Shown in pieces: positions 26,082 to 50,735 of a DNA stretch of 64,000 bases (the stretch's first letter is position 1; each line of letters starts with the position of its first letter). The notes under the pieces are model-generated. The model ran no database searches. It worked only from the letters and a program-made list of their open reading frames with translations, and was not told the origin of the DNA. This DNA is from an uncultured Victivallales bacterium (GTDB taxonomy: Bacteria > Verrucomicrobiota > Kiritimatiellia > UBA8416 > CAYRKB01). A program made the translations under genes and the position numbers. The stretch is taken from assembly GCA_964424705.1 (NCBI GenBank), contig CAYRKB010000001.1, positions 22,575-86,574 on the forward strand. The letters are read 5' to 3'.

Positions 26082-26136
26082 GCAACACTCCCAGAGTTGG
26101 AGTGAGATAACCACGGTGGATTCGGACCGTCAAGGC

Positions 26137-32061: not shown

Positions 32062-32197
32062 CAAAGAGGGCATCGGCGGCTGTCTCTGGCGATTCCCCCC
32101 GCACGTAGGGTTGCGGATTCGCTCCGCCGTTCCTTCTTCTCTCTTGCATCATGAAATCCGTGCCAGGGGACATCCGGGCCAAGGTGATCGGGACGCC

Positions 32198-37531: not shown

Positions 37532-38281
37532 ATGAGCGAGGACGTTAAACATATTGTTCTGCGAGCCGTTGACGTGAAGCGCTACTATCACGGTGAGGAC
37601 GGCTCGGTCACGAAGGCGCTGGACGGCGTGACCCTCGACGTGGTCCGCGGCGAGTATCTTTCCATCATGGGCCCGTCGGGATCCGGGAAGTCCACCCTGT
37701 TCAACATGATCGGCGGAATCGACTGTCCGACCGAGGGCATGGTGTTTATCGACGAGATCGACATGGCCCAACTCGACGCCTACGAGCTGGCTTGGATGCG
37801 ATGCTACAAGATCGGCTATATATTCCAGAGCTACAACATTCTGCCCACCCTGAGCGCGCTGGAAAACACCACGCTGCCGATGCTTTTTGCGGGGCTCAGC
37901 CCGGGCGACGCCCGGGACAAGGCGGCGGAGATCCTGAAGATGGTGGGGCTGGGCGAGCGGCTGTTTCACCGGCCCTACGAGCTTTCCGGCGGCCAGCAGC
38001 AGCGCGTGGCCGTCGCGCGCGCGATCGCCAATGACCCGGTCATCATCCTTGCAGACGAGCCTACGGCCAACCTTGACACCAAGACCGGCGCGGAGATTAT
38101 CGACCTGCTCAACCGCCTGCGCAAGGAGCGCAACATCACGATCATTTCCGCGACGCATGACATGAAGATGCTCGACGTGTCCGACCGGATCCTGTGGATT
38201 CGCGACGGGCGGGTCGACCGGCTGGAGAAGCGGAAGGATTTGAATATCACGGTGGGCACCATCGGCGCGGCGGATCACTAG
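37532..38281 (+). CDS. ABC transporter ATP-binding protein (LolD/MacB-ATPase/FtsE-like), ATPase 1
   Basis: Walker A GPSGSGKST, the Q-loop, the signature LSGGQQQRVAVARA, Walker B ILADEPT and an H-loop are present. Confidence 0.9.
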   Translation: MSEDVKHIVLRAVDVKRYYHGEDGSVTKALDGVTLDVVRGEYLSIMGPSGSGKSTLFNMIGGIDCPTEGMVFIDEIDMAQLDAYELAWMRCYKIGYIFQSYNILPTLSALENTTLPMLFAGLSPGDARDKAAEILKMVGLGERLFHRPYELSGGQQQRVAVARAIANDPVIILADEPTANLDTKTGAEIIDLLNRLRKERNITIISATHDMKMLDVSDRILWIRDGRVDRLEKRKDLNITVGTIGAADH

Positions 38282-38299: not shown

Positions 38300-38974
38300 T
38301 TGCAGGAAAGGGCGGACGTGGAAGCAGGCAACATACCCGAACAGATACGGCTGAGCTGGGCGATCGCCTTCCAGGTGAGCCTGGCTGGCCTGCGCCGGCG
38401 CTTCGGGCGGTCGATGATCACGATGTCGGGCGTGGTCCTTGCCATTGCCTTCCTGGCCTACATGCTTTCTTCGGAGAGCATCATCAAATCCCTGATTCAG
38501 CTCGATGACGATCAGCTCAACATCCGGCTCCAGGAGATGGGTGTAAACATTTTCCGCGGCGGCGGCACGGATCCCATGACCTACCTGCTGCTGGGGCTGA
38601 CGCTTCTGACCTGCACCGTCGGCATCACGAATTCCATGCTCATGGCCGTCACGGAGCGAACCCGAGAGATCGGGACGCTGAAGTGCCTGGGCGCCAGCGA
38701 TGACTTCATTCTCAAGACCTACTTCATCGAGTCCTCGCTCCACGGGGTCTGCGGGGCCGTGTTGGGCATGGTCATCGGGCTGCTCGTTGCCATCGGGGTG
38801 AACTGGATCAACTATGGCCACCAGGCGCTGTTCGCGCTGCCCCTGGTCGGCCTGCTCAGAGCCCTGGTCATATCCCTTGTCATGGGCGGCCTGATGACGG
38901 TCACCGCATCGCTGTTCCCCGCCTATGTGGCGGCGCGGAAGCAGCCCGTGGAAGCCTTGAGGGTGGAGGAATAG
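38300..38974 (+). CDS. minimal FtsX-domain ABC permease (4 TM, no large periplasmic domain)
   Basis: TM1 is MITMSGVVLAIAFLAYML and only ~45 aa lie before TM2. The C-terminal FtsX 3-TM bundle ends ...FPAYVAARKQPVEALRVEE. The track start is TTG at 38300; GTG at 38318 with a GGAAAGGG RBS is likely. Confidence 0.75.
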   Translation: MQERADVEAGNIPEQIRLSWAIAFQVSLAGLRRRFGRSMITMSGVVLAIAFLAYMLSSESIIKSLIQLDDDQLNIRLQEMGVNIFRGGGTDPMTYLLLGLTLLTCTVGITNSMLMAVTERTREIGTLKCLGASDDFILKTYFIESSLHGVCGAVLGMVIGLLVAIGVNWINYGHQALFALPLVGLLRALVISLVMGGLMTVTASLFPAYVAARKQPVEALRVEE

Positions 38975-39711
38975 TGAGCGACGCCATCATTACCATTCGC
39001 GGGGTCTCGAAGGTGTACCGGAAGGGCGAGGAGGAGGTCCACGCGCTCCGCGGGGTGACCCTCGACATCCAGAAGGGCCAGTACGTGTCGATCATGGGGC
39101 CGTCCGGGTCGGGGAAGTCCACGCTCTTCAATATCATCGGCGGGCTCGACACCCCGACTTCGGGGGACGTGCTGGTGGAAGGCCACAAGCTCGACCAGCT
39201 GAACTCGTCGCAGCTCTCGTGGTTCCGCTGTCACAAGATTGGCTTCATCTTCCAGTCGTTCAACCTCGTCCCCACGATGACCGCGCTGGAGAACGTTGCC
39301 ATCGCGCGCACCTTTGCGGGCGCGTCGCCGTCCGAGGCCCGGCGCGATGCGGCCGCGGTGCTCGAGAGCGTCGGCCTGGGCCATCGGCTGGACCACCTTC
39401 CGTCGCAGGTGTCGGGCGGGCAGCAGCAGCGCATTGCCATCGCGCGGGCCCTGGTGAACAAGCCTCTCATCATTCTGGCGGACGAGCCGACCGGGAACCT
39501 GGATCTCAAGACGGGCGAGGAAATCATCAACCTGCTGTCCGCGATGAAGAAGGACCTGGGGATCACGATCGTGACGGCCACGCACGATATGAAGATGCTG
39601 TCCCGCTCTGATTTTGTCATCCGGATCGACAGCGGCGCGATTGAGAGCATCACGGCGAAGAAGGACCTGAAGATCGTTGTGGGGTCGATTGACGGCAAGA
39701 CGGTGCTCTGA
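38974..39711 (+). CDS. ABC transporter ATP-binding protein (LolD/MacB-ATPase-like), ATPase 2
   Basis: Walker A GPSGSGKST and the signature LSGGQQQRIAIARA are present. It is ~55% identical to ATPase 1. Its start overlaps the permease stop. Confidence 0.9.
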   Translation: MSDAIITIRGVSKVYRKGEEEVHALRGVTLDIQKGQYVSIMGPSGSGKSTLFNIIGGLDTPTSGDVLVEGHKLDQLNSSQLSWFRCHKIGFIFQSFNLVPTMTALENVAIARTFAGASPSEARRDAAAVLESVGLGHRLDHLPSQVSGGQQQRIAIARALVNKPLIILADEPTGNLDLKTGEEIINLLSAMKKDLGITIVTATHDMKMLSRSDFVIRIDSGAIESITAKKDLKIVVGSIDGKTVL

Positions 39712-39718
39712 GGCCGGG

Positions 39719-40066
39719 ATGAATAAAATTGATCGGAGAAGCTCCCTCGCGGGAGTTCCGGTGATGCTGGATGGCGTTGCGGCGGAGCATAAGCCGGATG
39801 GGGCGATGGCCCTGCGGGTGAGGATCGGGCGCGGCGCGGGTTTTCTTGAGCGGTTCCGGCCTGCGGTGACGGAGCGGACGTACGAGCTGGACCGGTTCGG
39901 CGGGTTCGTGGTGGACGAGATTGACGGCAAAAGGAATGTGCTGAGCATCATTGACGCGTTTCAGGAGAGATTCAGGATGTCGCGCCGTGAGTCGGAGCTT
40001 GGCGTGGTGGCGTTTCTGAAGATTCTCTTAAAGAGAAACCTGATCGCGATTGTGGCGAAAGATTGA
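39719..40066 (+). CDS. PqqD-like protein (RiPP-recognition-element / peptide-chaperone fold)
   Basis: The segment ...RTYELDRFGGFVVDEIDGKRNVLSIIDAFQERFRMSRRESELGVVAFLKILLKRNLI fits the PqqD family pattern (YxLD..G..vW..iDG.rtv.eI...l...f.....a..dv..Fl..L...gLI). The ATG at 39719 follows the ATPase 2 stop. The track ORF starts at 39677. Confidence 0.6.
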   Translation: MNKIDRRSSLAGVPVMLDGVAAEHKPDGAMALRVRIGRGAGFLERFRPAVTERTYELDRFGGFVVDEIDGKRNVLSIIDAFQERFRMSRRESELGVVAFLKILLKRNLIAIVAKD

Positions 40067-40096
40067 CGCAGCGCGGGCTGTGCTGAAACAAGCGAG

Positions 40097-43000
40097 TTGT
40101 CCGTGACGATTATGAATGTGATGCGGTCTGAGGCCGGAAAGCGAGCGGGGCGGGGTCTGTCGAGGCCCGCGCTGAACATGGCCTGCGCTGTGGTGCTGGC
40201 TCTAACGGCGTTGGTTTCCCTCGGCCAGGAGGTCCCTGCGGCGCCTTCCGCGGAGGCCCGCGCCATGATTTCCGAGATGCGCGAGCTCTTCGGGTCGGCC
40301 GGGTCGATGGCGCCGGGGCAGCCGGGCAACATGGCTCTGGAGGCCGAGGTGGCCCGTCGCTTCGCAAAGAGCGGCTTCGCCACGGGATCGATTCCCTTCA
40401 GCGCGCCGGTCTTTGTGCCGGGCCGGACCGTTCTCACGCGGACCAACGAAGCCCCGGTGACTCTGTACACGATGCATCCCACGATGTACCGGCCGGGCAA
40501 TTTCGCCGAATCCGAGTTTGCGGCCGACCTGGTGTATCTAGGGAAGGGCGAGTATGAGGACCTGGCGCGGGTCAAGGGCTCGCAGCTGGAGGGCGCCATC
40601 GCGTTGATGGACTTCAACTGCGGCGCCCGGTGGCGGGACCTGCTGCGGTTCGGCGTGAGCGGCTTTGTCTTCATCGGCGCGCCGTCCTACGAGTATGCCG
40701 ATTCCTACTCGAAGGTGTACAACACCGAGGTCTCCGTGCCGCGCTTCTTCGCTGAGGCGGAGTCCGGCGGGAAGCTGAAGGCCGCCTGCCTTGCCGCCGA
40801 AAAGGACGCGTTCGCAATCCGGGTCGACGTCCAGTCCGAGCCGTCGCGATTCCAGCCGGGAGAGCTGAAGGACCTCTGGGTTCTTGTCCCCGGAAGCGAT
40901 CCTGAGCTGGGCAAGGAGATCGTGCTGTTCACGGCGCGGATGGACGCCAATAGCGTGGTGCCGGAGCTGGCGACCGGCGGCCAGGCCGCGATCAACCCGT
41001 ACCTCATGCTCAAGATGCTGGAAGATTTCACGGCGAAGCCGCCGAAGCGATCCGTGCTGCTCGTTGCGGTGAACGCGCACACGCAGGCGCACTTGGGCGA
41101 GCGCATCCTCGCGTGGCACCTGCTGGCGGATAGCAATGATGCCGCGAAGCTCCGCGGCGAGATGGCCCGCGAAATGAGGGTCGCGCGCCTGTACAGCGAG
41201 AACTACGGGCTGCTCAAGCTGGCCCCGGTGTCGCTCGACCAGGGCAGGCTTTTTGCCGCGGTCGAAATCCTTACCCAGCTTGACCTCAAGCGGCAGGCGC
41301 AGCGCAAGGCGCAGCGGGACGCGGCGAAAGACGGGGTGCCAGCGCTTGAAGCGACGCCAGCCGCCACGAACGCAAATGCCGAGATTTCCGAGGTCGATAC
41401 GAACGACGTGCTCGACCTCGCGGTCTTTGAGGAGCGGGACTATCGCGAAGCCATCGAGCGGGGCGTCAAGGCCGCGCGGGAGGAGGAGAAAGGCAGCTTT
41501 TTCTCGCGGCGCATGCGCGATGAGAAGATGGACCTGGCGCTCGCGCAGGAGCGGCAATGGCTCGAAAGCATGGAAGGCATGCCCTACGCCGAGATCCTGG
41601 AGATGGCGCAGCTGGCCAAGCCGGTGTTTGACGACGAAAAACTGTTCGAAAGCTGGCGGATTGACCTCGATTCATCGAGCGGGCAGCGCCTTTCCGTCAA
41701 GAAGGAAATTCAAACTGCGGCAATGAAGACCAAGAACGCGCTGCTGCAGGAGCGGATCCGCGCGACCCGGGACAAGCAGCTGAGCGAGGCCGAGCGAAGC
41801 GCGCGCCTGGCCGACGTGGAGCAGCGGAGGGTGGACGCAACCCGCGTGCTCGTGATGTTCAACAAGATCGACTTCGGCATCGGCCGGCGGAAAGTGCGCT
41901 ACAGGGACATTGCGGCGAACGAGGCGCAGCGCACGCTGCTCAAGCGGTACCGGGACGAGCTCACGGAGAAGTTCTCCTTCTGGCAGCGCCACCATCGGGG
42001 CCGGCTGGAGGCCGATGCCGCCGGGGATTCGGTCCGCGATCAGCTCGGGGGCGGGAAGGTTGTCCTCGCGCTGACCTTGGAGATGACAGCCAACAGCGGG
42101 AAGCTTGCTTTTTCCGCGAGCTGCCCGGGCTTCGAGCCGTCGTGGCAGAAGAACTTCGGCCAATTTGTCTCCGGGATTGTTGGCAATCTCTCCTCCAACC
42201 GTGCAGACCGGTGGACCCCCTACGTGGATTCGCTGAACCCCGTGCCGGGTCTGCAGCAGGTGGACCTGCTCTATTCAACGGACTCGGCCGTGCGGTACTT
42301 TGTCGCGGCGAAGAACGGAGTCCAGGGCTGCGGCACCCCGGCCCTGGCCCTCAAGAATGCGCTGGCCGGCAAGGGGCGGGTCTTCAGCCCGGGGGACACG
42401 CTGGAAGCGCTTGATGCGCAGCAGATCTTCGACCAGCAGGCGTGGCTGCGCGAGTTCCTGCCGGCGCTTCTGAACGATCCGAAGATGACCGCCCGCGAGA
42501 ACCTGGACGTTACGCTGGTGGGGCATGGCGCCACGTTCGACACGAGCCGGGGCCTGTGGTCCACGCTTCTCGGGACGTTCGCCATGGAGGAGATGACCGC
42601 GAACATTGTGCCGGAGAAGGCCCTGCCGGGCTGCATGGTCGTGCTTTACAGCAAAGCGGATCCTACGGCCGCGGCGAACTTCCTGTTGGATGGCGACGTC
42701 GTCAACTGCTATGCGGCGATGAGCGATATTACCGGGAAGGCTGTGGTCTACGGAATCGCCGAGGGCGGCGGCATGGCGCCGCTGGCCTACCAGATGGATA
42801 AGAACTGGCGCCAGGTGGTGGAAGCGCTGGACAAGGGCCGCATCCAGACCACCATGCAAATGGACAGCAACATCGCCCGCGACCCCGCCAAGACGCTGCC
42901 CATGTTCCCGTGCCGCGAGTTCCCGATCTTGGACAGGGTGGACCCGACGCTGGTGGGAACTGAACCGATTACCGTCGCGACCATCTGGCCGAAGATAGGA

Positions 43001-45625
43001 AGCAGCAAGTCGGATCCCGCGAAGTACGGGGTGCACGGCTTCTTCCTGCCGAACAGCGTCTGGTCGCACGCTGCGTCCGGCCCCGGCGCGGTCTACCTGA
43101 ACCGGAAAGACGGTGCGGCGGCTCAGGAATCCCTGATGGTCATCACGGAAAAGAAGCGCTGTTCGATCAATGCCACCCCTGAGAAGCCGGAGGGCACCGG
43201 CTACGCCACCGCCGGGGAGCTTGGGTCCGACCTTTTCGCGCACACGGCGGAGGACATGGATTCGCTGAACGGGTTCCGGAGAAATCGGCTCAAGGGCGTT
43301 GCCAACTCGCTTGTCGAGCGGTTCATCGGGGAGGGGAAGAAATCGCTCCAGGCCATGGATGTTGCGCGGCGAGCCAAGGACCACGGGGCGTTTCTGCAGG
43401 CGAACTACCGGGCGCTGGGAAGCGAGATCAAGGCGTACCTGCAACTCAGCGCCATGAATGCCGACATGCTGAAGGCCATCATCCTGTACATGGCCCTGAT
43501 GCTGCCTTTCTGCTTCTTCATCCAGAAGCTGCTTTTCGATTTCGACCTGCTGCAGCATGAGCTGCTCGCGTTCTCGGGATGCTTCGTCGCGATGTACAGC
43601 CTTTTCCGCGTGATCCACCCCGCCTTCACCGTTGCGGAAACGCCGGAGGCGATCTTCATTGCGTTCGTTCTAGGGGCGATCGGGCTCTTCGTCACCATGA
43701 TCATGCATTCCCGGTTCAAGTCGGACATGCAGATGATTTTCGGGAAGGTCGGCGGCATAGGTGACGACGCGGCCTATGGCACGGTCGGCACGACGGCCAT
43801 GATGGTGGGAATTCACAACATGCGGCGCAGGCGGGTGCGCACGGTGCTGACCACCTCGACCGTGATGCTCGTGATCTTCACGATGCTGACGTTCTCCAGC
43901 GTTTCGCAGCGGCTGGACCCCACGCTGATCAGGAAGGCGTCGGATGCGCCGTATACCGGGCTCTTCTTCCACTGGCCCGGCGGGAAGAATATGGACCAGG
44001 ATACGGTCAACGTCCTGCGAAACATCTTCTCGGACCGGGCGGATGTTGTTGTGAGGCGGACGATGGCGCTCACGGGCGCTTGGCCGATCGAGCCGGTGGG
44101 CGGCGGGCGGAGCGAGAGCGCCACGAATCTTATTCACGGCATCAAGAGCCTTGTCGGGCTGCCGTCGAACGATAGGGTGTTTGCCATGTCGCGACCCCTG
44201 GTTGCGGGCCGCCATTTCTCCGCCGATGATGCGAGCGAGATCATTCTGCCGGCGAAGGCCGCGGAGGCCATGAATTTGTCCGTGGCGGACGTGGGCCGGA
44301 CCACGCTGCGCTTTCATGGCGCGGACCTTGCGCTGGTGGGCATTGCGGACGACCAGCGCCTGCGCCTCGTCCGCGACATGAATCCCAATCTGCCGTTTCT
44401 GCCGTTTCTTGCGAATCAGGCGATGGGCGGTCCGAAGAAGGATCCCGAGTCGCTCGAGATCGCGGAGGATGACGTGAGCGCGATCGTGGCCGACACGGCC
44501 TCGCTGGTGCTGCTCCCCGCGACGGTGGCGAAGAACTGCGGCGCGCTCCCGCACAGCGTTTCCGTCCGCTTCCTTGATGAAGTGGTGGCGGGCCCCGGCT
44601 TTCACCTGTGGGAGGAGATGGACCGCCTGCTGACGATTACGCACGCCCGGTTCTACATCGGCAGCGAGAGCGCGTTCAAGGCCAACTCGGAGGCCGAGCG
44701 TGTCACGCAGGCGGGCATCTATTTCGTGAACAGTAACTACCGGACGTCCATCGGCGGGCTTGCGCGGCTTATCATTCCGCTGCTGATTGCCGGCCTGATC
44801 ATTCTCAACACGATGCTGGGCACGGTCTACGAGCGCAAGTCCGAGATCGCCATTTACAACGCCATCGGCCTGAACCCGACGCACATCTTCATGTTCTTTC
44901 TGGCGGAGGCGTTCGTGTACAGCTTCATCGGGTCCGTGGGCGGGTATCTCATCGGGCAGAGCCTGGCGATGACGCTGCAGCATTTTCACCTGATCCGGGA
45001 CATCGGCGTCAACTTCTCGTCGCTGATGGTGGTGTATGCCATCCTGTTCACCATTGGCCTGGTGCTTCTCTCCACGATCTACCCGGCCTACGTGGCGACG
45101 CGCACGGCGGTGCCCTCCGGAAAGCGGCGCTGGTCCATGCCGGCGCATGACGGCCACACGATGGACGTGGCGTTCCCCTTCATTTACGAGGGCAGCCTTT
45201 CTTCCGGCGTGATGTACTACATTTACGAGGACTTCCTCGCGTGCACGGAGAAGTCGCTCGGCAGCGTGATCGCCACGTTCGAGAGCAAGGCCGTTACCAC
45301 GGACGCCGAGGGAATGCCGGTGTACGCGCTGACGTATTCGATCGGGCTTGCGCCCTTTGACCTGGGCGTTACCCAGCGGGTGAAGTTCGTGGCGCGCTAT
45401 GAGAAGCGCGTGAGCAGTTACCGCCTGTCCGTCTCCATCGAGCACCTGTCCGGGCTGGACTCGAACTGGGTGAGCTTGAACCGCACGTTCCTGGAGCGCA
45501 TGCGGAAGTTTCTCATGGTGTGGCGCAATATGCCGCCGGCGATGTACGGGTGGTATTCGGATTGTGGAAAGAAGTTGTATCTGGACCAGCCGCTGCCGAC
45601 AAAGCCGGAGAGGGCTGTTCAGTAG
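40097..45625 (+). CDS. 1842-aa fusion: signal anchor + PA/M28-peptidase-like ectodomain + long charged/coiled linker + MacB/FtsX-type ABC permease
   Basis: The N-terminus ...MACAVVLALTALVSLG leads into M28/PA-like blocks (EGAIALMDFNCG...; LFTARMDANSVVPELATGGQAAIN; VAVNAHTQAHLGER). A MacB-like TM1 (RVRTVLTTSTVMLVIFTMLTFSSVSQRLDP) is followed by a ~300-aa periplasmic domain, then FtsX TM2-4 (...IAIYNAIGLNPTHIFMFFLAEAFVYSFIGS...). The start codon is uncertain: TTG 40097, GTG 40103 or ATG 40112. Confidence 0.75.
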   Translation: MSVTIMNVMRSEAGKRAGRGLSRPALNMACAVVLALTALVSLGQEVPAAPSAEARAMISEMRELFGSAGSMAPGQPGNMALEAEVARRFAKSGFATGSIPFSAPVFVPGRTVLTRTNEAPVTLYTMHPTMYRPGNFAESEFAADLVYLGKGEYEDLARVKGSQLEGAIALMDFNCGARWRDLLRFGVSGFVFIGAPSYEYADSYSKVYNTEVSVPRFFAEAESGGKLKAACLAAEKDAFAIRVDVQSEPSRFQPGELKDLWVLVPGSDPELGKEIVLFTARMDANSVVPELATGGQAAINPYLMLKMLEDFTAKPPKRSVLLVAVNAHTQAHLGERILAWHLLADSNDAAKLRGEMAREMRVARLYSENYGLLKLAPVSLDQGRLFAAVEILTQLDLKRQAQRKAQRDAAKDGVPALEATPAATNANAEISEVDTNDVLDLAVFEERDYREAIERGVKAAREEEKGSFFSRRMRDEKMDLALAQERQWLESMEGMPYAEILEMAQLAKPVFDDEKLFESWRIDLDSSSGQRLSVKKEIQTAAMKTKNALLQERIRATRDKQLSEAERSARLADVEQRRVDATRVLVMFNKIDFGIGRRKVRYRDIAANEAQRTLLKRYRDELTEKFSFWQRHHRGRLEADAAGDSVRDQLGGGKVVLALTLEMTANSGKLAFSASCPGFEPSWQKNFGQFVSGIVGNLSSNRADRWTPYVDSLNPVPGLQQVDLLYSTDSAVRYFVAAKNGVQGCGTPALALKNALAGKGRVFSPGDTLEALDAQQIFDQQAWLREFLPALLNDPKMTARENLDVTLVGHGATFDTSRGLWSTLLGTFAMEEMTANIVPEKALPGCMVVLYSKADPTAAANFLLDGDVVNCYAAMSDITGKAVVYGIAEGGGMAPLAYQMDKNWRQVVEALDKGRIQTTMQMDSNIARDPAKTLPMFPCREFPILDRVDPTLVGTEPITVATIWPKIGSSKSDPAKYGVHGFFLPNSVWSHAASGPGAVYLNRKDGAAAQESLMVITEKKRCSINATPEKPEGTGYATAGELGSDLFAHTAEDMDSLNGFRRNRLKGVANSLVERFIGEGKKSLQAMDVARRAKDHGAFLQANYRALGSEIKAYLQLSAMNADMLKAIILYMALMLPFCFFIQKLLFDFDLLQHELLAFSGCFVAMYSLFRVIHPAFTVAETPEAIFIAFVLGAIGLFVTMIMHSRFKSDMQMIFGKVGGIGDDAAYGTVGTTAMMVGIHNMRRRRVRTVLTTSTVMLVIFTMLTFSSVSQRLDPTLIRKASDAPYTGLFFHWPGGKNMDQDTVNVLRNIFSDRADVVVRRTMALTGAWPIEPVGGGRSESATNLIHGIKSLVGLPSNDRVFAMSRPLVAGRHFSADDASEIILPAKAAEAMNLSVADVGRTTLRFHGADLALVGIADDQRLRLVRDMNPNLPFLPFLANQAMGGPKKDPESLEIAEDDVSAIVADTASLVLLPATVAKNCGALPHSVSVRFLDEVVAGPGFHLWEEMDRLLTITHARFYIGSESAFKANSEAERVTQAGIYFVNSNYRTSIGGLARLIIPLLIAGLIILNTMLGTVYERKSEIAIYNAIGLNPTHIFMFFLAEAFVYSFIGSVGGYLIGQSLAMTLQHFHLIRDIGVNFSSLMVVYAILFTIGLVLLSTIYPAYVATRTAVPSGKRRWSMPAHDGHTMDVAFPFIYEGSLSSGVMYYIYEDFLACTEKSLGSVIATFESKAVTTDAEGMPVYALTYSIGLAPFDLGVTQRVKFVARYEKRVSSYRLSVSIEHLSGLDSNWVSLNRTFLERMRKFLMVWRNMPPAMYGWYSDCGKKLYLDQPLPTKPERAVQ

Positions 45626-45764: not shown

Positions 45765-47774
45765 GTGTCGTTCACTGACGACAAAGAACTGAACGAATAT
45801 CGGCAGATCATGGCGCCGCCCGAAGTGTCAGGCTTCGAGGATGGCTTCAACTGGAAAGCCATCGCCGGCGCTATTTTCCTGGGCTTCATCGTGATGCCCG
45901 CGTCGGACTATCTCAGCCTTGTCATCGGCGGCGACGCCGGGCTTGGCAACACCATGAAGTGGATTCTGGTGATCCTCTTCGCCGAAATCGCGCGCCGCTC
46001 GTTCACCAGTCTGAAATGTCAGGAGCTGTACGTTCTGCAGTTCATGGTCGGCTATGCGATGGCCGACCAGTTCACCGGATACCTGTGGACCCAGTACGTG
46101 GCGCAGTCGGACTATATCAAGGGGCTGGGGCTCGACCTCCCCAAATGGGCGTTTCCCGCCGCCGAGGAATTGGAGCGGAGCGGCCGCACGTTCCTGGCTA
46201 AGCCGTGGCTGCCCATCATTGCCCTTACCATGTTCGGGGTCTTCATCAGCCGCATCCACAACTACGGCCTCGGCTACGTGCTTTACAGGGTTGTCAACGA
46301 CGTTGAGAAATTACCCTTCCCGTTCGCGCCCGTTGCGGCGGCAGGCATTGTGGCCCTGTCCACCGACCGCGGCGACGAGGCGAAGTGGCGCCGGCGCTGT
46401 TTCAGCATCGGCGGCATCGTTGGGATTACGTGGGGCATGATCTACATTTGCGTGCCCGTGATCACGGAGGCCATTCTTCCCAAGCGCGTCGAGCTCGTCC
46501 CCCTGATCTTTCTCGATTTCACGACGCAGTTCGGCAAGCTGCTGCCGGCCGTCCCTTTCAACCTCGTGCTGGACGTTGGCGCGTTTCTGGCCGGTATGAT
46601 CGTGCCGTGGTGGGGGGTGATCGGAGGAGCGGTCGCGCTGCTCATGACCTGGATTCTGAACCCGTTCCTCCAGCATATCGGCGTCCTCTCCCAGTGGCGG
46701 CCGGACATGGGCTACATCAATACGACGTTCGTCAACAGCATTGATTTCTATCTGTCGTTCGGAATCGGGGTGTCCCTGGCCATTACGTTCAGCCAGATGT
46801 TCATCACGGTCGGGGAGCGGATCAGGGAAAAGATGAAGCCCGGCGCGCAGCGCGTGATCACCCACAGAAAGACCATGGGGCAGGGGTTTCGTGAGAATTG
46901 GAAGATCCTGTTCACTAACAACCGTGCCCGCGGCGATTTCTCGATTTGGGTCGCCATCGGCATTTACCTCTTTGAGACGTTCGCATGGATCGGGCTAGGC
47001 CTGTACCTGATCGGGCCGCGCTATCCGTGGATGCTGCTGACCTTCTTTGCGCTGGTCTACACGCCGCTCTTCTCGTATGCGACGGCCAAGATGGAAGGGC
47101 TGATCGGCCGCGGGCTGAACCTGCCGATGCTCAGGGAAGTGACGATTCTCGCCACGGGGTACCAGGGCTCGGCCATCTGGTTCGCGCCCATGCCGATCGC
47201 GAACGTGGGGAGCGAGACGTCCGGCTTCCGGGTGCTCGAATTGACGGGCACGAAGATCCAGAGCCAGATCAAAACCATCGTGCTCACTCTGCCTATTGTC
47301 GTCATTGCGTCATTCTTCACGGCGGAGATTCTCTGGCGCATGGCGCCTGTGCCGTCGGCCGCGTACCCATGGACCGAGCGCATGTGGGAGATGAATATCC
47401 GGAACTGGGGCGTAATCTACACCTCGACGCTGGAGGGCGGATCCCAGTTCCTGGAGGCCCTGAACGGCAATTACGTGGTCTGGGGCCTCGTGGCCGGGTC
47501 TACGCTGCTTGGCTCGTTGACCATGCTGGGGCTGCCGGTCATGTTTATTTTCGGCGCGCTGGGCGGCCTGTCGCAGGTGTCCCCCGGCGCGATGTTCTGC
47601 GGCCTGGTCGGCGCCATTGTGGGACGGTTCTATTTCAGGAAACGTTACAAGGACATGTGGCTGAAGTATATGACGGTCGTGCTGGCAGGCTTCGGTTGCG
47701 GGATGGGCATTATCGCCATGGTCGGGATGGCCTTTACTGTGATCACGCGAATGTTAAGCCCCACGTTGTGGTGA
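45765..47774 (+). CDS. large polytopic integral membrane protein (>=14 predicted TM helices), family unknown
   Basis: GTG at 45765 is preceded by AAGAGGAGG. Hydrophobic helices run throughout (AIFLGFIVMP..., ILVILFAEIA..., WLPIIALTMFGVFI..., etc.). It has no ABC or MFS signatures. Confidence 0.7.
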   Translation: MSFTDDKELNEYRQIMAPPEVSGFEDGFNWKAIAGAIFLGFIVMPASDYLSLVIGGDAGLGNTMKWILVILFAEIARRSFTSLKCQELYVLQFMVGYAMADQFTGYLWTQYVAQSDYIKGLGLDLPKWAFPAAEELERSGRTFLAKPWLPIIALTMFGVFISRIHNYGLGYVLYRVVNDVEKLPFPFAPVAAAGIVALSTDRGDEAKWRRRCFSIGGIVGITWGMIYICVPVITEAILPKRVELVPLIFLDFTTQFGKLLPAVPFNLVLDVGAFLAGMIVPWWGVIGGAVALLMTWILNPFLQHIGVLSQWRPDMGYINTTFVNSIDFYLSFGIGVSLAITFSQMFITVGERIREKMKPGAQRVITHRKTMGQGFRENWKILFTNNRARGDFSIWVAIGIYLFETFAWIGLGLYLIGPRYPWMLLTFFALVYTPLFSYATAKMEGLIGRGLNLPMLREVTILATGYQGSAIWFAPMPIANVGSETSGFRVLELTGTKIQSQIKTIVLTLPIVVIASFFTAEILWRMAPVPSAAYPWTERMWEMNIRNWGVIYTSTLEGGSQFLEALNGNYVVWGLVAGSTLLGSLTMLGLPVMFIFGALGGLSQVSPGAMFCGLVGAIVGRFYFRKRYKDMWLKYMTVVLAGFGCGMGIIAMVGMAFTVITRMLSPTLW

Positions 47775-47795: not shown

Positions 47796-50735
47796 ATGAG
47801 CGAAAAGACTGAAGGTTTAGGAAGAATGACGGGGCGGGCGTTTGTCCTCGGCCTCTTCTTTGCGGCGGTTTTTGCCTGGTTTACGGTCCTGCGCGAAAAC
47901 CGTCCTCCCTATGAGGCTTTGACGGCGACCAACATTCCCGTCCTCCCGTATGCCCTGCTCGTGGTCTCCGTGCTCGTTATCAACCCGCTGGTCAAGTTTC
48001 TGCGGCTGGCGCGGGTTTTTTCGCGCGTTGAGCTGCTCGTGATCTTCTTGATGGGAATGGTGTCGAACGGCATCGTTTCCTACGGTCTGCAGGCGCAGCT
48101 CGTGCCGCTTGTAGCGGGCCCGTCGAGCCGCTTCAACCACCCCGGGGTCAGGTGGAACGTGTATGTCGAGCCGTACCTCAATGAGGATTTCTATCTCGTC
48201 TCGAAGGGTTCCAGCAAGGCCGCCGCCAGCTACAGGGACGCGGACGCGGCCGCGGAGAAGGCAAAGTCCGTGCTCAAAGCGGCGCAGGACCTGACGGTGT
48301 GCAGGGAGGACCAGCAACGGGCCCAGGAGGCGCTGGACGGGCTTGTCGCGCCGCAGGGCCAGCCGCAGGTGCCTGAGACCGTGCGGCAGGGCTACGAACG
48401 CAAGCTGCGCATTGCCCAGCGCCAGTACCAGCAGGCTGAGAAGGCTTGGCAGGTGTATGCCGCCGCGAACGTGGAGCGTGAGGTCATTGCCACATTTGGC
48501 GAGAAGATCAAGCTGCTGGATGTCGAAAAGGCGGCGCGGAAGGAAGCCCTGGCGGCCATCAAGAAGCCGGCGACCGATTTCGTCAGCGAGTTTGAGAAGG
48601 GATTTGCGCCGGAGAAGCGGGCGATCCCCGGGTTTATCTATATCACGGGCGAAGGCTGGGAGAGCTACTCGTCCCGCTTCGAGCGCATGGTAAAGGGCCG
48701 GAAGGCCTTCGCCGAGCTGTATGAGGCAGATTGCCTGCTGGCCAGAGCCCGGCAGGGCGAAGGCCTCGACGTGGCAGCCGTGGACGCGGCTCTGGGAAGA
48801 GCGATTGTCCTGCTGGAACACATCGGCGACATGTCGCAGCTTGCTGAGCGGAAAGCTGCGTTCTCGGCCAAGCAGGCGGAGCTCGATGCCATCCGCGCGA
48901 AGGAGCAGTCAGGGCTGAAGGACCTCCAGGAGCGCGGCTACTATGCTAAGGACCGCGACATCGCATCGATCGAGAAGCAGACCAAAGCTACGACGAAGCG
49001 GATCGAGCTGCTGGACAAGCAGATTCTCAAGCTGACGGAGGCCGTGAAGGCGAAGATCGACCCGGAGGCGACAGTGCGCGGGCGCGCCGTCGCCGTGCTG
49101 GAGACCGCGCGCTCGATCCGCGCTGAATTCGGCACGGCGAAGGATATCCCGGCGCTGCGCGGCCGGCTGGCGGCAAGCCTTGCGACGTTCCGCTCGTTCG
49201 ACGCGTCCCTGCGCCGGTTCCTTGTGGGGGATATCCAGTGGAGCGTCTGGGCGAAGCCTCTCTTCAACTGGAGCCTGATCGTCTTTGCGACGTACATCGT
49301 CCTGATGTCGCTTAACGTCCTTATCTTCAGGCAGTGGGCCCATAATGAGAAGCTCATCTACCCGCTGGCAGAGCTTCCGCTGATCATGGCTGGCGCGGAT
49401 GACGTGGAACAGAAGGGCGTGCTGCCCCTGGTGTTCAAGAGCGGACTTTTCTGGACCGGGTTCTGCATATCCGCGGTCATCCTCGGGTGGAACCATCTGG
49501 CGGACGCCAGGATCATTGCCAACATCAGCCCGATCTCGCTCGACTACAAGTGGGGATCCTATGTGGACGGCAGCGTATTCAACGCGCTCAAGGAGACCCG
49601 CTTCAAGATTATCTTCTCCGTGATCGGCCTGACATTCCTCGTTCCGGCGGGAGTTTCTTACTCCATGTGGTTTTGGCAGGTGCTATGCATGGTGGAACTG
49701 CTCGTCATGGTCTGGCTTGGCATGGGGCAGAGCCGCGACTCATTCCAGTACCACTTCACGTATCTCATGAACTACCAGACGGCGCAGGGCGGCGGCGCCC
49801 TCATCGTCTTCGCCTCGGTCATTCTCTGGAAGTGCCGGAAGTACCTCTTGTCCGCCTTCTCGGCGCAGTCCGTTGCGGGCCTGGATCCGTCCGAGCGCAG
49901 CGAGCTGCGGGTGTCGTCCGCGCTATTCCTTGCGGGGTCCGTTGCGCTCGTGGCCATGTTCACGCTACGGCTCAACGTGAACATCTTTTACTCTGTCATC
50001 ATGTACCTGCTTTTGCTCGTCCTGACGATCGGCCTGGTGCGCGCGGTCGCAGAAGGCGGCGTCCTTGGCACCCAGGCGTTCTTCAACCCCTTCCACTTTA
50101 TCCGGCATGTGTTCGGCATGGACAAGGCCTGGAACTCGCCCGTGCTGATGGCGCCGCTGTGGATCTTTGTGGCGATGATGTACGTCGACATCAAGTCCTT
50201 CATCGCGCCCGCGATGGCCAACGCGATGAAGCTCCGCGACGACATGCGCATCAACCGCCTCAAGTTCCACGGTGCCGTGTGGGCCAGCATTCTGGCCGCG
50301 ATGGCCGTCGGGTTTGCGGTGCACCTGATCCTCGCCTACTCGGGCGGCACCGGCAAGATGAGCGGGTGGCATTACTCGGGCGGCGTGCAGGACCAGATGG
50401 GCTTTGGCTTCATCCAGCGCATGATGGAAGAGAAGCCCGTGGACGTGGCGGGGGTGCGGTGGTGGATGCTCGCCGGCGCGTCGATCATGGTGATGGTGAT
50501 CCTGCTGCGCCAGCAGTTCAACTGGATTACGCATCCGATCGGCCTGATCATGTGCATCAACCCGATGATGTTCCTGTTCTGGGGATCCATGTTTATCGGA
50601 TGGTGTTTCAAGTCGCTCGTGAGCAAATACGGGAATCGGGAAACCTACCAGCGCCTCCGCTATCTGGCCGTCGGCCTGATCGTTGGCGAGCTTTTTGTTG
50701 CGGTCCTCGGGTGGCACCGGTTTGACTTCTGGTGA
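47796..50735 (+). CDS. 979-aa integral membrane protein: N-terminal TM cluster, ~300-aa cytoplasmic/periplasmic coiled-coil insert, C-terminal multi-TM domain; family unknown
   Basis: TMs lie at residues ~15-110. Residues ~150-470 are charged and helical (AAEKAKSVLKAAQDL...QERGYYAKDRDIASIEKQTKATTKRIELLDKQILKLTEAVKAK). About 11 further TMs follow to the C-terminus. Confidence 0.7.
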   Translation: MSEKTEGLGRMTGRAFVLGLFFAAVFAWFTVLRENRPPYEALTATNIPVLPYALLVVSVLVINPLVKFLRLARVFSRVELLVIFLMGMVSNGIVSYGLQAQLVPLVAGPSSRFNHPGVRWNVYVEPYLNEDFYLVSKGSSKAAASYRDADAAAEKAKSVLKAAQDLTVCREDQQRAQEALDGLVAPQGQPQVPETVRQGYERKLRIAQRQYQQAEKAWQVYAAANVEREVIATFGEKIKLLDVEKAARKEALAAIKKPATDFVSEFEKGFAPEKRAIPGFIYITGEGWESYSSRFERMVKGRKAFAELYEADCLLARARQGEGLDVAAVDAALGRAIVLLEHIGDMSQLAERKAAFSAKQAELDAIRAKEQSGLKDLQERGYYAKDRDIASIEKQTKATTKRIELLDKQILKLTEAVKAKIDPEATVRGRAVAVLETARSIRAEFGTAKDIPALRGRLAASLATFRSFDASLRRFLVGDIQWSVWAKPLFNWSLIVFATYIVLMSLNVLIFRQWAHNEKLIYPLAELPLIMAGADDVEQKGVLPLVFKSGLFWTGFCISAVILGWNHLADARIIANISPISLDYKWGSYVDGSVFNALKETRFKIIFSVIGLTFLVPAGVSYSMWFWQVLCMVELLVMVWLGMGQSRDSFQYHFTYLMNYQTAQGGGALIVFASVILWKCRKYLLSAFSAQSVAGLDPSERSELRVSSALFLAGSVALVAMFTLRLNVNIFYSVIMYLLLLVLTIGLVRAVAEGGVLGTQAFFNPFHFIRHVFGMDKAWNSPVLMAPLWIFVAMMYVDIKSFIAPAMANAMKLRDDMRINRLKFHGAVWASILAAMAVGFAVHLILAYSGGTGKMSGWHYSGGVQDQMGFGFIQRMMEEKPVDVAGVRWWMLAGASIMVMVILLRQQFNWITHPIGLIMCINPMMFLFWGSMFIGWCFKSLVSKYGNRETYQRLRYLAVGLIVGELFVAVLGWHRFDFW

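What the first reader, a model, noticed from the sequence alone, without database searches (positions are those of the whole stretch)
40097..45625. 1842-aa single polypeptide fusing a PA/M28-peptidase-like (transferrin-receptor-like) ectodomain to a MacB-type permease
Residues ~60-340 carry PA-domain and M28 Zn-peptidase-like blocks. Several canonical metal ligands appear substituted, for example GGQAAIN where GAxDD is expected and AVNAHTQAH where the EE pair is expected. This suggests a non-catalytic or divergent peptidase-like binding module. Next comes a ~300-aa charged helical linker, then additional beta-rich domains, a 3-4 TM cluster, and finally a complete MacB permease (TM1, periplasmic domain, FtsX TM2-4). 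Fusing the mechanotransducing permease directly to a huge ectodomain is highly unusual. The start codon is ambiguous (TTG/GTG/ATG within 40097-40121).
Basis: partly seen in the sequence, partly recalled or inferred. Interest (0 to 1): 0.7.

Follow-up and report, generated by a model that had tools for sequence, protein, structure and literature searches.

The report
Pseudo-aminopeptidase fused to MacB-type permease
This is a real, single 1,837-residue membrane protein in which a complete but catalytically disabled aminopeptidase-like "receptor" domain sits in the periplasm on the same chain as an ATP-driven MacB/FtsX-type permease. It is the core of a conserved, uncharacterised eight-gene envelope system found across the Planctomycetes-Verrucomicrobia-Lentisphaerae group of bacteria.

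Summary
ORF 40097-45625 (+) is uninterrupted, and its probable start is ATG 40112 (1,837 aa).

- **Not an artefact.** The identical protein lies on three contigs read from the assembly collection. About 50 genome loci and more than 300 cluster representatives carry the same full-length architecture.
- **Lost active site.** The canonical zinc ligands are replaced family-wide: His to Pro/Arg, bridging Asp to Gln, and Glu-Glu to His-Thr.
- **One correction.** The "charged helical linker" is a 318-aa insertion inside the M28 fold, not a linker.
- **Operon.** The gene sits with two ABC ATPases, a minimal FtsX, a PqqD-like protein, an OPT-like protein, a DUF6785/6784 protein and an unknown protein.

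The most likely mechanism is ATP-driven mechanotransmission acting on a fused pseudo-peptidase receptor. The substrate is unknown. I rate it a new variant of a known kind.

The parts
40112..45625 (+). Giant gene: 1,837 aa from ATG 40112. Alternative starts are TTG 40097, ATG 40121 and the JGI call at ATG 40178. Stop codon at 45623-45625.
40112..40225 (+). Sec-type signal peptide or signal anchor: basic n-region, h-region aa 20-38, then ...VSLG/QEV.
   Evidence: Hydropathy. Homologues show classical signal peptides.
40232..41086 (+). First half of the M28 aminopeptidase-like fold, with a PA-like insert (aa ~41-325). It carries the degenerate motifs FTARMD, GGQAAIN and NAHTQ.
41093..42046 (+). 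318-aa, 36%-charged, almost all-helical insertion inside the M28 fold (aa 328-645). It is the least conserved and most length-variable part of the protein.
42047..42511 (+). Second half of the M28-like fold (aa 646-800). The Asp179-equivalent position is Glu657 and is variable across the family.
42539..43171 (+). Periplasmic beta-rich domain of about 11 strands (aa 810-1020). Its fold has not been assigned.
   Evidence: pLDDT mostly 80-93. No Pfam or PDB sequence match.
43214..43447 (+). Three long helices leading into the membrane (aa 1035-1112).
43448..43711 (+). Extra cluster of three TM helices (aa 1119-1137, 1151-1169, 1180-1198). It is very strongly conserved (LPFCFF, IHPAF and PEAIF motifs).
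43712..43840 (+). Basic cytoplasmic loop containing NMRRRRVRT, immediately before TM1 (aa 1201-1243).
43841..43897 (+). FtsX-fold TM1 / stalk helix (aa 1244-1262).
43898..44749 (+). Periplasmic core domain between TM1 and TM2 (aa 1263-1546), MacB_PCD-like.
44750..45091 (+). FtsX TM2-TM4 module (aa 1547-1660).
   Evidence: Pfam PF02687 E 6.6e-14. MacB and LolC PDB hits.
45092..45622 (+). Conserved cytoplasmic C-terminal alpha/beta domain (aa 1661-1837). It may have a START/Bet v 1-like helix-grip fold.
37532..38281 (+). ABC ATPase 1, with canonical Walker A/B, Q-loop, signature and H-loop motifs.
38300..38974 (+). Minimal FtsX-type permease, 224 aa, with only ~34 aa between TM1 and TM2 (no periplasmic domain).
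38974..39711 (+). ABC ATPase 2, 56% identical to ATPase 1, all motifs canonical.
39719..40066 (+). PqqD-like small protein (115 aa in the JGI call; the ORF opens at 39677).
   Evidence: Pfam PqqD E 2e-7, above the curated cut-off. NCBIfam. JGI gene call.
45765..47774 (+). 669-aa polytopic membrane protein, a divergent member of the OPT (oligopeptide transporter) superfamily.
   Evidence: Window protein: OPT E 0.022, below the cut-off. 7 of 13 orthologues hit OPT, best 2e-7.
47796..50735 (+). 979-aa membrane protein with DUF6785 + DUF6784 and a ~350-aa charged helical insert.
   Evidence: Adjacent to the giant gene in 30 of 30 loci. Fused to a giant homologue in P0141.
50743..51681 (+). Conserved ~312-aa protein with no detectable family.

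Best explanation
**What it is**
The gene encodes the large permease subunit of a type VII (MacB/FtsX-fold) ABC mechanotransducer. Its usual separate periplasmic partner has been replaced by a domain fused in cis.

**Architecture (shown)**
- A Sec signal sequence sends ~1,080 residues to the periplasm.
- That ectodomain holds a complete M28 aminopeptidase fold with a PA-like lid. The fold has lost the co-catalytic zinc site but keeps a conserved Asp278/Gln291/His323 pocket.
- The M28 fold is interrupted by a variable charged helical insert and followed by a beta-rich domain.
- Three extra conserved TM helices bring the chain back to the cytoplasm.
- A standard TM1 / periplasmic-core-domain / TM2-4 module follows, and the chain ends in a conserved cytoplasmic domain.

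**Mechanism (inferred)**
- ATP binding and hydrolysis by the adjacent ABC ATPases zips the stalk helices together, as in MacB, LolCDE, FtsEX and YbbAP.
- That motion moves the periplasmic core domain and, with it, the pseudo-peptidase module.
- The pseudo-peptidase module acts as a non-hydrolysing binding or gating domain for a periplasmic or outer-leaflet ligand. The most plausible ligand is a peptide or a protein N-terminus.
- The protein works in one assembly with the DUF6785/6784 and OPT-like membrane proteins. It probably also works with the minimal FtsX paralogue, the second ATPase and the cytoplasmic PqqD-like protein.

**Not known**
The substrate and the direction of trafficking are not known.
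For: **M28 fold and loss of the active site**
- Ligand census over 75 sequences:
  - His97-equivalent: never His (Pro 56).
  - Bridging Asp: Gln in 57, Asp in only 6.
  - Catalytic Glu: His in 69.
  - Glu ligand: Thr 57, Ser 7.
  - Asp179-equivalent: variable.
  - Asp278: kept in 74 of 75.

**Type VII permease core**
- Pfam FtsX 6.6e-14.
- MacB and LolC PDB sequence hits.
- MacB_PCD in 10 of 24 members.

**ATPases and topology**
- Two adjacent ATPases carry all catalytic motifs.
- Topology rests on the signal peptides, the TM segments and the basic loops.

**One functional unit**
- Synteny over 30 well-flanked loci: DUF6785 30, OPT-like 28, ABC1 26, small FtsX 24, ABC2 23, PqqD 21.
- Rosetta-stone fusions: giant + DUF6785/6784 in P0141, and PqqD + giant in P0007 and P0010.

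**Literature**
- Mechanotransmission, and the general rule that type VII systems pair with a periplasmic partner: PMC5985334 and PMC12646458.
Against: - No experiment exists, and no paper on this family or on DUF6785/6784 was found.
- The C-terminal model has only moderate confidence (pLDDT 66, pTM 0.51).
- The window protein itself does not reach Pfam thresholds for M28, PA or MacB_PCD. Those assignments rest on family profiles and on models.
- A peptide ligand is suggested only by module identities (aminopeptidase ancestry, PqqD, OPT). A cytoplasmic helix-grip-like C-terminal domain, if real, would point to a hydrophobic ligand instead.
- The stoichiometry is untested. Either a giant/small FtsX heterodimer or two separate homodimeric transporters is possible.
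- Conserved Asp278 and His323 leave room for a non-canonical metal site.
Confidence: 0.6

Rival explanations
1. The ectodomain is still an enzyme. It would be an ATP-regulated peptidase or amidase that uses a remodelled (mono-metal or metal-independent) site built from Asp278, His323 and neighbouring residues. The ABC module would switch it on and off, as FtsEX does for cell-wall hydrolases and as YbbAP feeds TesA.
For: - Asp278 is kept in 74 of 75 sequences and His323 in 69 of 75, so the former active-site pocket is under selection.
- Type VII ABC systems are known to control or feed periplasmic hydrolases (PMC12646458; abstracts listed).
Against: - Four of the five positions examined that correspond to canonical metal-ligand or catalytic residues are replaced by non-ligand or non-acidic residues in most members, and the replacements themselves vary (Gln/Asp/Arg/Ala; Asp/Glu/Ala/Gly).
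- The general-base Glu is never retained.
- The fifth ligand, the His256 equivalent, could not be mapped.
Confidence: 0.13
2. It is an FtsEX-like regulator of cell-envelope remodelling. The helical insert plus the degenerate peptidase domain would play the role of EnvC, PcsB or CwlO (coiled coil plus, in EnvC, a dead LytM domain), fused in cis, and would activate a separate wall hydrolase.
For: - The architecture is analogous: a long charged helical element plus an inactive peptidase-fold domain sit on top of an FtsX-fold permease.
- A polysaccharide-deacetylase gene lies next to the cluster in two loci.
Against: - The periplasmic domain is MacB_PCD-like (Pfam hits in 10 of 24 members) rather than FtsX-ECD-like.
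- No hydrolase gene is conserved in the cluster.
- Several genomes carry 2-3 paralogous loci, which is unexpected for a division factor.
- The constant partners are polytopic membrane proteins (OPT-like and DUF6785), not wall enzymes.
- The helical insert is the least conserved region and is absent in P0039.
Confidence: 0.1
3. It is a conventional MacAB-TolC-type efflux or immunity pump that expels a toxic peptide or antibiotic from the periplasm. The M28-like domain would only be a substrate trap.
For: - MacB is the best PDB sequence match of the permease core.
- MacB family members export peptides and toxins (PMC5985334).
- The associated modules (PqqD, OPT) are peptide-related.
Against: - No membrane-fusion (HlyD/MacA) or outer-membrane-factor domain was found among the products scanned against Pfam. 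These were the operon products, most of the large ORFs flanking the operon in the window, and the upstream flank of the Oligosphaera locus.
- The tblastn comparison of 60 loci looked only for the window's own cluster genes, so it neither shows nor excludes other conserved genes.
- The ~1,080-aa ectodomain would occupy the space where a MacA hexamer docks. This point is inference.
Confidence: 0.1
4. The long ORF is an artefact: an assembly join or sequencing frameshift that fuses two genes.
For: None found.
Against: - The identical protein lies on 3 contigs.
- 39 full-length homologues of 1,538-1,958 aa were found.
- Nearly all full-length representatives among 331 strong hits are 1,450-2,120 aa.
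Confidence: 0.01

Closest known systems
MacB / LolC-LolE / HrtB / YbbP (type VII ABC transporter permeases)
   Same: - FtsX TM2-4 module, long TM1 stalk, and a periplasmic core domain between TM1 and TM2.
- A separate MacB-type ABC ATPase encoded next door.
- Best PDB sequence hits are MacB and LolC.
   Different: - ~1,240 extra N-terminal residues: a signal peptide, a ~1,080-aa ectodomain and three extra TM helices.
- A ~175-aa cytoplasmic C-terminal domain.
- No MacA/TolC, LolA or TesA-type partner gene.
- Accompanied by a second, minimal FtsX protein that lacks any periplasmic (Porter) domain, and by a second ATPase.
PA-domain M28 aminopeptidases (Aneurinibacillus AM-1 aminopeptidase 2ek8, B. 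subtilis BSAP/YwaD 6hc6, P. aeruginosa PaAP 8ac7) and Aeromonas aminopeptidase 1rtq
   Same: - Recognisable motifs around the former metal ligands.
   Different: - Zinc ligands and the catalytic Glu are replaced.
- A 318-aa helical domain is inserted after the EE-equivalent strand.
- The domain is covalently tethered to a membrane ABC permease rather than secreted.
Non-catalytic M28-like ectodomains of membrane complexes: transferrin receptor 1, nicastrin (gamma-secretase), nicalin (BOS complex), GPAA1 (GPI transamidase)
   Same: - An M28/PA-type fold that has lost peptidase chemistry and serves as a binding or gatekeeping ectodomain of a membrane machine.
   Different: - Those proteins are eukaryotic, single-pass, and not coupled to an ATPase. 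There is no evidence of orthology.
- The window protein is closer to bacterial PA-M28 enzymes, so the loss of catalysis is probably independent (inference).
FtsEX-EnvC / FtsEX-PcsB and YbbAP-TesA (type VII ABC plus a periplasmic hydrolase-fold partner)
   Same: A type VII ABC module coupled to a periplasmic hydrolase-fold protein. In EnvC that hydrolase-fold domain is itself catalytically dead, and long helices mediate the coupling (abstracts; PMC12646458).
   Different: - Here the partner is fused in cis.
- It has the M28 fold rather than LytM, CHAP or GDSL.
- The conserved additional partners are polytopic membrane proteins.

Membership tests
Type VII ABC transporter permease (FtsX/MacB fold) | C-terminal FtsX module (TM2-TM4, Pfam PF02687) | tested here: met
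   - PF02687 E 6.6e-14, 52.4 bits against a cut-off of 25.5, at aa 1555-1665.
- Present in 24 of 24 family members.
Type VII ABC transporter permease (FtsX/MacB fold) | TM1 followed by an extracytoplasmic Porter/Sabre-type domain before TM2 | tested here: met
   - TM at 1244-1262 followed by a 284-aa domain.
- MacB_PCD Pfam hit in 10 of 24 members, but not in the window protein itself.
Type VII ABC transporter permease (FtsX/MacB fold) | Cognate ABC ATPase with intact catalytic motifs encoded alongside | tested here: met
   - Two ABC_tran genes lie in the operon (E 8e-32 and 2e-36).
- All motifs are canonical.
- ABC1 is adjacent in 26 of 30 loci.
Type VII ABC transporter permease (FtsX/MacB fold) | ATP-driven mechanotransmission without a transmembrane substrate path | not testable with these tools
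   Requires structures in different nucleotide states, or biochemistry. Inferred from family membership (PMC5985334).
MacAB-TolC tripartite efflux pump (MacB in the strict sense) | Dedicated membrane-fusion protein (MacA/HlyD) and an outer-membrane factor | tested here: not met
   - No such domain among the products scanned against Pfam: the operon products, most of the large flanking ORFs in the window, and the upstream flank of the Oligosphaera locus.
- The rest of the genome could not be examined.
MacAB-TolC tripartite efflux pump (MacB in the strict sense) | Nucleotide-binding domain fused to the N-terminus of the permease | tested here: not met
   The N-terminus is a signal peptide plus an ectodomain, and the ATPases are separate genes.
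Peptidase family M28 (active co-catalytic zinc aminopeptidases) | M28 alpha/beta fold | tested here: met
   - Foldseek 3e-14.
- Profile E 9e-8 to 2ek8.
Peptidase family M28 (active co-catalytic zinc aminopeptidases) | Metal ligands His, Asp (bridging), Glu, Asp and His, plus the catalytic Glu | tested here: not met
   - Window residues: Arg276, Gln291, His323 / Thr324, Glu657.
- Family census: His never present, bridging Asp in 6 of 75, catalytic Glu in 0 of 75.
- The last His ligand could not be mapped.
Peptidase family M28 (active co-catalytic zinc aminopeptidases) | Pfam PF04389 above the gathering score | tested here: not met
   - No hit for the window protein.
- Met only in distant relatives: P0039 at 48.6 bits, also P0115 and P0159.
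PA (protease-associated) domain | PA-fold insert in the peptidase domain | tested here: inconclusive
   - Pfam PA is found in only 2 of 24 members, below the cut-off.
PqqD family (neighbour gene 39719-40066) | Pfam PF05402 above the gathering score | tested here: met
   - 31.7 bits against a cut-off of 23.4.
- It stays below the NCBIfam equivalog cut-offs for PQQ or lasso-peptide PqqD, so it belongs to the domain family and not to those pathways.
OPT oligopeptide transporter family (neighbour gene 45765-47774) | Pfam PF03169 above the gathering score | tested here: inconclusive
   - Window protein: 13.8 bits against a cut-off of 25.8, but the match runs nearly the full length.
- 7 of 13 orthologues match, best E 2e-7.

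The most novel reading that the evidence does not exclude
The locus encodes an undescribed envelope machine of the PVC superphylum, which would be a new functional class of type VII ABC systems.

- An asymmetric pair of FtsX-fold permeases would be driven by two paralogous ATPases. One permease is a giant carrying an in-cis pseudo-aminopeptidase receptor. The other is minimal and lacks the Porter domain that the 2018 MacB review describes as present in all type VII members known to its authors.
- This pair would power ligand hand-over to or from two dedicated polytopic membrane partners (OPT-like and DUF6785/6784).
- A cytoplasmic PqqD-like peptide-binding protein and a C-terminal helix-grip-like domain would provide coupling on the inside.
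- Extra ATPase-less giant/OPT-like/DUF6785 paralogue sets in the same genome would then be interchangeable specificity modules sharing one motor.
Probability: 0.3. Interest if true: 0.8.

Novelty: new variant of a known kind. Interest (0 to 1): 0.64.

Why it matters
- **Mechanism.** Type VII ABC systems (MacAB-TolC, LolCDE, FtsEX, YbbAP-TesA, BceAB, HrtBA) each gain their biological role from a periplasmic or membrane partner. Here the partner is fused to the permease and is a dead aminopeptidase. That makes it a bacterial counterpart of the nicastrin / nicalin / GPAA1 / transferrin-receptor solution, but one coupled to an ATP motor.
- **Abundance.** The family is large: 331 representatives at 50% identity score E <= 1e-30. 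It lies in a conserved gene cluster in Lentisphaerota, Kiritimatiellota, Verrucomicrobiota and Planctomycetota, lineages whose envelope biology is poorly understood. No literature on it was found.
- **Annotation.** It would assign a first functional context to DUF6785 and DUF6784, and to a divergent bacterial branch of the OPT family.
- **Tractability.** It gives a concrete test case for how mechanotransmission can be wired to a large receptor domain. A cultured carrier exists: Oligosphaera ethanolica DSM 24202 (locus L048).

Tried and rejected
- **Assembly or frameshift chimera:** rejected.
- **DUF6785 protein as a paralogue of the OPT-like protein:** BLASTP gave E 0.23 and hhalign gave probability 1.2%, so no relationship is claimed.
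- **Literature:** searches for DUF6785/DUF6784, FtsX + PqqD + Planctomycetes, FtsX-like permease + M28 + Lentisphaerae, and bacterial nicastrin/nicalin-like proteins returned nothing relevant.
- **PDB sequence searches of neighbours:** the 332-aa ORF and the OPT-like profile gave no hits. The DUF6785 protein gave only weak (E >= 0.02), short matches to cereblon isoform 4 that I consider spurious.
- **Homologue search of the 332-aa protein:** returned only unnamed hypothetical proteins.
- **Homologue search of the C-terminal domain alone:** returned only fragments of the same family.
- **Promoter and terminator scan of the operon:** counts were no higher than in shuffles.
- **tRNA scan of the window:** none found.
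- **MacAB-TolC-type pump reading:** set aside, because no adaptor or outer-membrane gene was found among the neighbouring products scanned.
Full report
**1. The observation**

ORF 40097..45625 on the + strand is open for 1,842 codons.

Four starts are possible:
- TTG 40097.
- ATG 40112.
- ATG 40121.
- ATG 40178, which the JGI gene call uses (1,815 aa).

Homologues start with classical Sec signal peptides that have a basic n-region. The window protein has such an n-region only if translation starts at 40112 or 40121. I therefore number residues from ATG 40112 (1,837 aa).

**2. The fusion is real**

- A word-indexed search found 39 homologues, almost all 1,538-1,958 aa. All of the full-length ones carry the FtsX domain.
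- A genome scan with the ectodomain profile found 58 loci. All but two are in genomes labelled PVC (Lentisphaeria/Victivallales, Kiritimatiellia, Verrucomicrobiota, Planctomycetota) or simply "uncultured bacterium". One is the cultured Oligosphaera ethanolica DSM 24202. The closest locus is an uncultured Victivallales at 61% identity.
- An exhaustive profile search of 1.84 billion representatives gave 1,307 hits at E <= 1e-3 and 331 at E <= 1e-30. Nearly all full-length hits are 1,450-2,120 aa.
- The exact window protein occurs on three contigs.
- A sequencing or assembly fusion is therefore excluded.

**3. The N-terminal ectodomain**

*Sequence evidence*
- Pfam and NCBIfam see only the FtsX module in the window protein.
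- A profile of the family's N-terminal 365 residues matches PDB sequences of:
  - the PA-containing M28 aminopeptidase 2ek8 (E 9e-8);
  - B. subtilis YwaD/BSAP (3e-4);
  - nicalin (1e-3);
  - nicastrin (4e-3 to 6e-2).
- Individual distant members reach Pfam Peptidase_M28 (best 1.1e-12) and, weakly, PA.

*Structure evidence*
- An AlphaFold2 model of aa 36-1112, built on 17 sequences, has pLDDT 87 and pTM 0.84.
- Foldseek against the PDB returns PA-M28 aminopeptidases first (2ek8 3e-14, PaAP, BSAP). Transferrin receptor 1, GCPII and NAALADase L follow at about 1e-10.
- A complete M28 fold is therefore present.

*The helical stretch is an insertion*
- In the model, the almost all-helical stretch (model residues 293-609, aa 328-645) lies between the strand that carries the former Glu-Glu motif and the strand that carries the former Asp179 position.
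- The stretch is 36% charged, against 22% overall.
- The rest of the M28 fold follows it.
- In the distant homologue P0039 the Pfam M28 match runs contiguously across this point (profile positions 1-118 at aa 253-376).
- The "linker" is therefore an insertion within the peptidase fold. It is also the least conserved and most gapped region.

*What follows the M28 fold*
- A beta-rich domain of about 200 aa (aa 810-1020), of unassigned fold.
- Three long helices (aa 1035-1112) that lead into the membrane.

**4. The catalytic site**

The HMMER alignment to YwaD places the family motifs opposite the canonical M28 motifs:

| Family motif | Canonical M28 motif |
|---|---|
| TAPxDxNS | AHYDS |
| GAQ | GAND |
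| NAHTQ | GAEE |

A census over 75 family sequences gave the following:

| Canonical position | Residues found in the family |
|---|---|
| His ligand | Never His (Pro 56, Ala 8, Arg 4) |
| Neighbouring Asp (Asp278) | Asp in 74 of 75 |
| Bridging Asp | Gln 57, Asp only 6 |
| Catalytic Glu | His 69 |
| Glu ligand | Thr 57, Ser 7 |
| Asp179 equivalent | Asp 25, Glu 24, other 26 |

The co-catalytic zinc site is absent throughout the family. Asp278, Gln291 and His323 are themselves conserved, which suggests the old pocket has been re-used for binding. A non-canonical catalytic site cannot be excluded.

**5. The membrane part**

*Hydropathy and topology*
- Hydropathy shows a signal segment at aa 20-38.
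- Three TM helices lie at aa 1119-1198.
- A loop with 8 Lys/Arg follows (aa 1199-1243).
- TM1 is at aa 1244-1262, followed by a 284-aa domain.
- Three more TM helices lie at aa 1547-1656.
- A basic segment starts the last 177 residues.
- This gives a self-consistent topology: ectodomain and core domain in the periplasm, loop and C-terminal domain in the cytoplasm.

*Evidence for a type VII permease*
- The FtsX Pfam match is well above threshold.
- The best PDB sequence hits are MacB, LolC, LolF and YtrF.
- MacB_PCD is recognised in 10 of 24 members.
- A model of aa 800-1837 is only moderately confident (pLDDT 66, pTM 0.51).

*Conservation by region*

| Region | Mean conservation |
|---|---|
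| TM1 | 0.81 |
| TM2-4 | 0.76 |
| Cytoplasmic loop | 0.70 |
| Three extra TM helices | 0.69 |
| C-terminal domain | 0.60 |
| M28/PA | 0.55 |
| Helical insert | 0.32 |

The extra TM helices are much too conserved to be mere anchors.

**6. Genomic context**

The gene lies in a same-strand, tightly spaced operon:

| Gene | Coordinates |
|---|---|
| ABC ATPase 1 | 37532-38281 |
| 224-aa FtsX protein (only ~34 residues between TM1 and TM2) | 38300-38974 |
| ABC ATPase 2 (56% identical to ATPase 1) | 38974-39711 |
| PqqD-like protein | 39719-40066 |
| Giant gene | 40112-45625 |
| 669-aa divergent OPT-superfamily protein | 45765-47774 |
| 979-aa DUF6785 + DUF6784 protein | 47796-50735 |
| Unknown ~312-aa protein | 50743-51681 |

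Both ATPases have canonical motifs.

Among 30 related loci with enough flanking DNA, the neighbours of the giant gene are as follows:

| Neighbour | Loci (of 30) |
|---|---|
| DUF6785 gene | 30 |
| OPT-like gene | 28 |
| ABC1 | 26 |
| Small FtsX | 24 |
| ABC2 | 23 |
| PqqD | 21 |

- The commonest gene order is ABC1 - PqqD - giant - OPT-like - DUF6785 - small FtsX - ABC2 - unknown.
- Two natural fusions tie the parts together. P0141 (2,120 aa) joins a giant homologue to DUF6785 + DUF6784. P0007 and P0010 carry the PqqD domain at the N-terminus of the giant protein.
- Some genomes hold two or three loci. Loci of the giant/OPT-like/DUF6785 type without ATPases also occur (L026, L039, L043, L051).
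- No adaptor (HlyD) or outer-membrane-factor domain was found among the products scanned, either in the window or in the upstream flank of the Oligosphaera locus.

**7. Mechanism**

*Shown*
- The fold assignments.
- The loss of the zinc ligands.
- The topology (by prediction).
- The operon and its conservation.
- The fusions.

*From established knowledge*
- Type VII ABC proteins do not move substrates across their own membrane. They convert ATP binding and hydrolysis into periplasmic motion through the stalk helices (PMC5985334).
- They usually take their function from a periplasmic partner (PMC12646458).

*Inferred*
- In this protein the partner is the fused pseudo-aminopeptidase ectodomain.
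- The ATPases drive its movement relative to the core domain.
- It binds rather than cleaves a ligand.
- The OPT-like and DUF6785/6784 proteins are physical partners.
- A peptide or protein N-terminus is the most economical guess for the ligand, given the aminopeptidase ancestry and the PqqD and OPT modules. This is weakly supported. A helix-grip-like cytoplasmic domain would instead hint at a hydrophobic ligand.
- It is open whether the giant and minimal FtsX proteins form a LolC/LolE-like heterodimer with an ABC1/ABC2 heterodimer. The distant locus L002 has the small FtsX, one ATPase and the giant gene in a row, which is compatible with a heterodimer.

**8. Comparison and novelty**

- The permease core meets the tested defining features of type VII ABC permeases. 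It is not a MacB orthologue in the strict sense, because it has no MacA/TolC partners and no fused nucleotide-binding domain.
- The ectodomain has the M28 fold but fails the catalytic-ligand test. It should be filed as M28-like (non-peptidase homologue) and not as a peptidase.
- Functionally, the closest analogies are:
  - non-catalytic M28-like ectodomains in eukaryotic membrane complexes (TfR, nicastrin, nicalin, GPAA1);
  - type VII systems coupled to hydrolase-fold partners (FtsEX-EnvC, YbbAP-TesA).
- No paper on this family, or on DUF6785/DUF6784, was found in the searchable library.
- I rate it a new variant of a known kind. It is abundant in PVC bacteria, uncharacterised and mechanistically suggestive, but its function is unknown.

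Noticed in passing
window 38300-38974 (+): The second FtsX-type permease of the operon is only 224 aa, with about 34 residues between TM1 and TM2. It therefore has no periplasmic Porter domain. [quoted passage not shown] The gene is conserved next to ABC ATPase 2 in most loci.
   Followed up: partly
window 39677-40112 (+): The PqqD-like ORF and the giant ORF are in the same reading frame, separated by a single TGA (40064-40066) and 45 nt with no further stop. In homologues P0007 and P0010 the PqqD domain is fused to the N-terminus of the giant protein. In that arrangement the signal peptide would act as an internal signal anchor and PqqD would be cytoplasmic.
   Followed up: partly
P0141 (from; no genomic locus fetched): A 2,120-aa representative fuses a giant M28-like/MacB_PCD/FtsX protein to DUF6785 + DUF6784. 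This Rosetta-stone fusion links the giant gene to the gene at window 47796-50735.
   Followed up: partly
L026, L039, L043, L051 (and the multi-locus MAGs ETNP2_MAG_64 and UBA8228): Some genomes carry 2-3 paralogous loci. Separately, some loci have only the giant, OPT-like and DUF6785 genes, with no ATPase, small FtsX or PqqD gene nearby. This suggests interchangeable modules that share one motor.
   Followed up: partly
window 47796-50735 (+), aa ~130-470 of the product: The DUF6785/6784 protein carries a ~350-aa highly charged, apparently coiled-coil insert after its first three TM segments. By the positive-inside rule the insert is predicted to be periplasmic, so it would share a compartment with the helical insert of the giant protein.
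   Followed up: no
[not shown]
   Followed up: partly
window 43448-43711 (+): The three extra TM helices are among the most conserved parts of the protein, with invariant Pro, Phe, Cys and His residues (LPFCFF, IHPAF, PEAIF). This implies a functional role within the membrane rather than simple anchoring.
   Followed up: no
L001 7591-8487 (-) and L002 7588-8418 (+): A polysaccharide deacetylase (Polysacc_deac_1) gene lies immediately upstream of the cluster in two distantly related loci. No such domain was found among the window ORFs near the operon that were scanned.
   Followed up: no
window 35452-37353 (-) and 21092-24718 (+): Two large proteins (633 and 1,208 aa) whose only recognisable domain is GYF_2. 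The first is divergently oriented directly upstream of the operon.
   Followed up: no
window 31973-34039 (+) and 34154-35359 (+): Two tandem MGH1-like / GH63-type glycoside hydrolase genes lie upstream of the operon. Two sigma-54 response regulators lie at 12487-13899 (+) and 24771-26114 (-). The overall context is ordinary chromosomal sequence.
   Followed up: no
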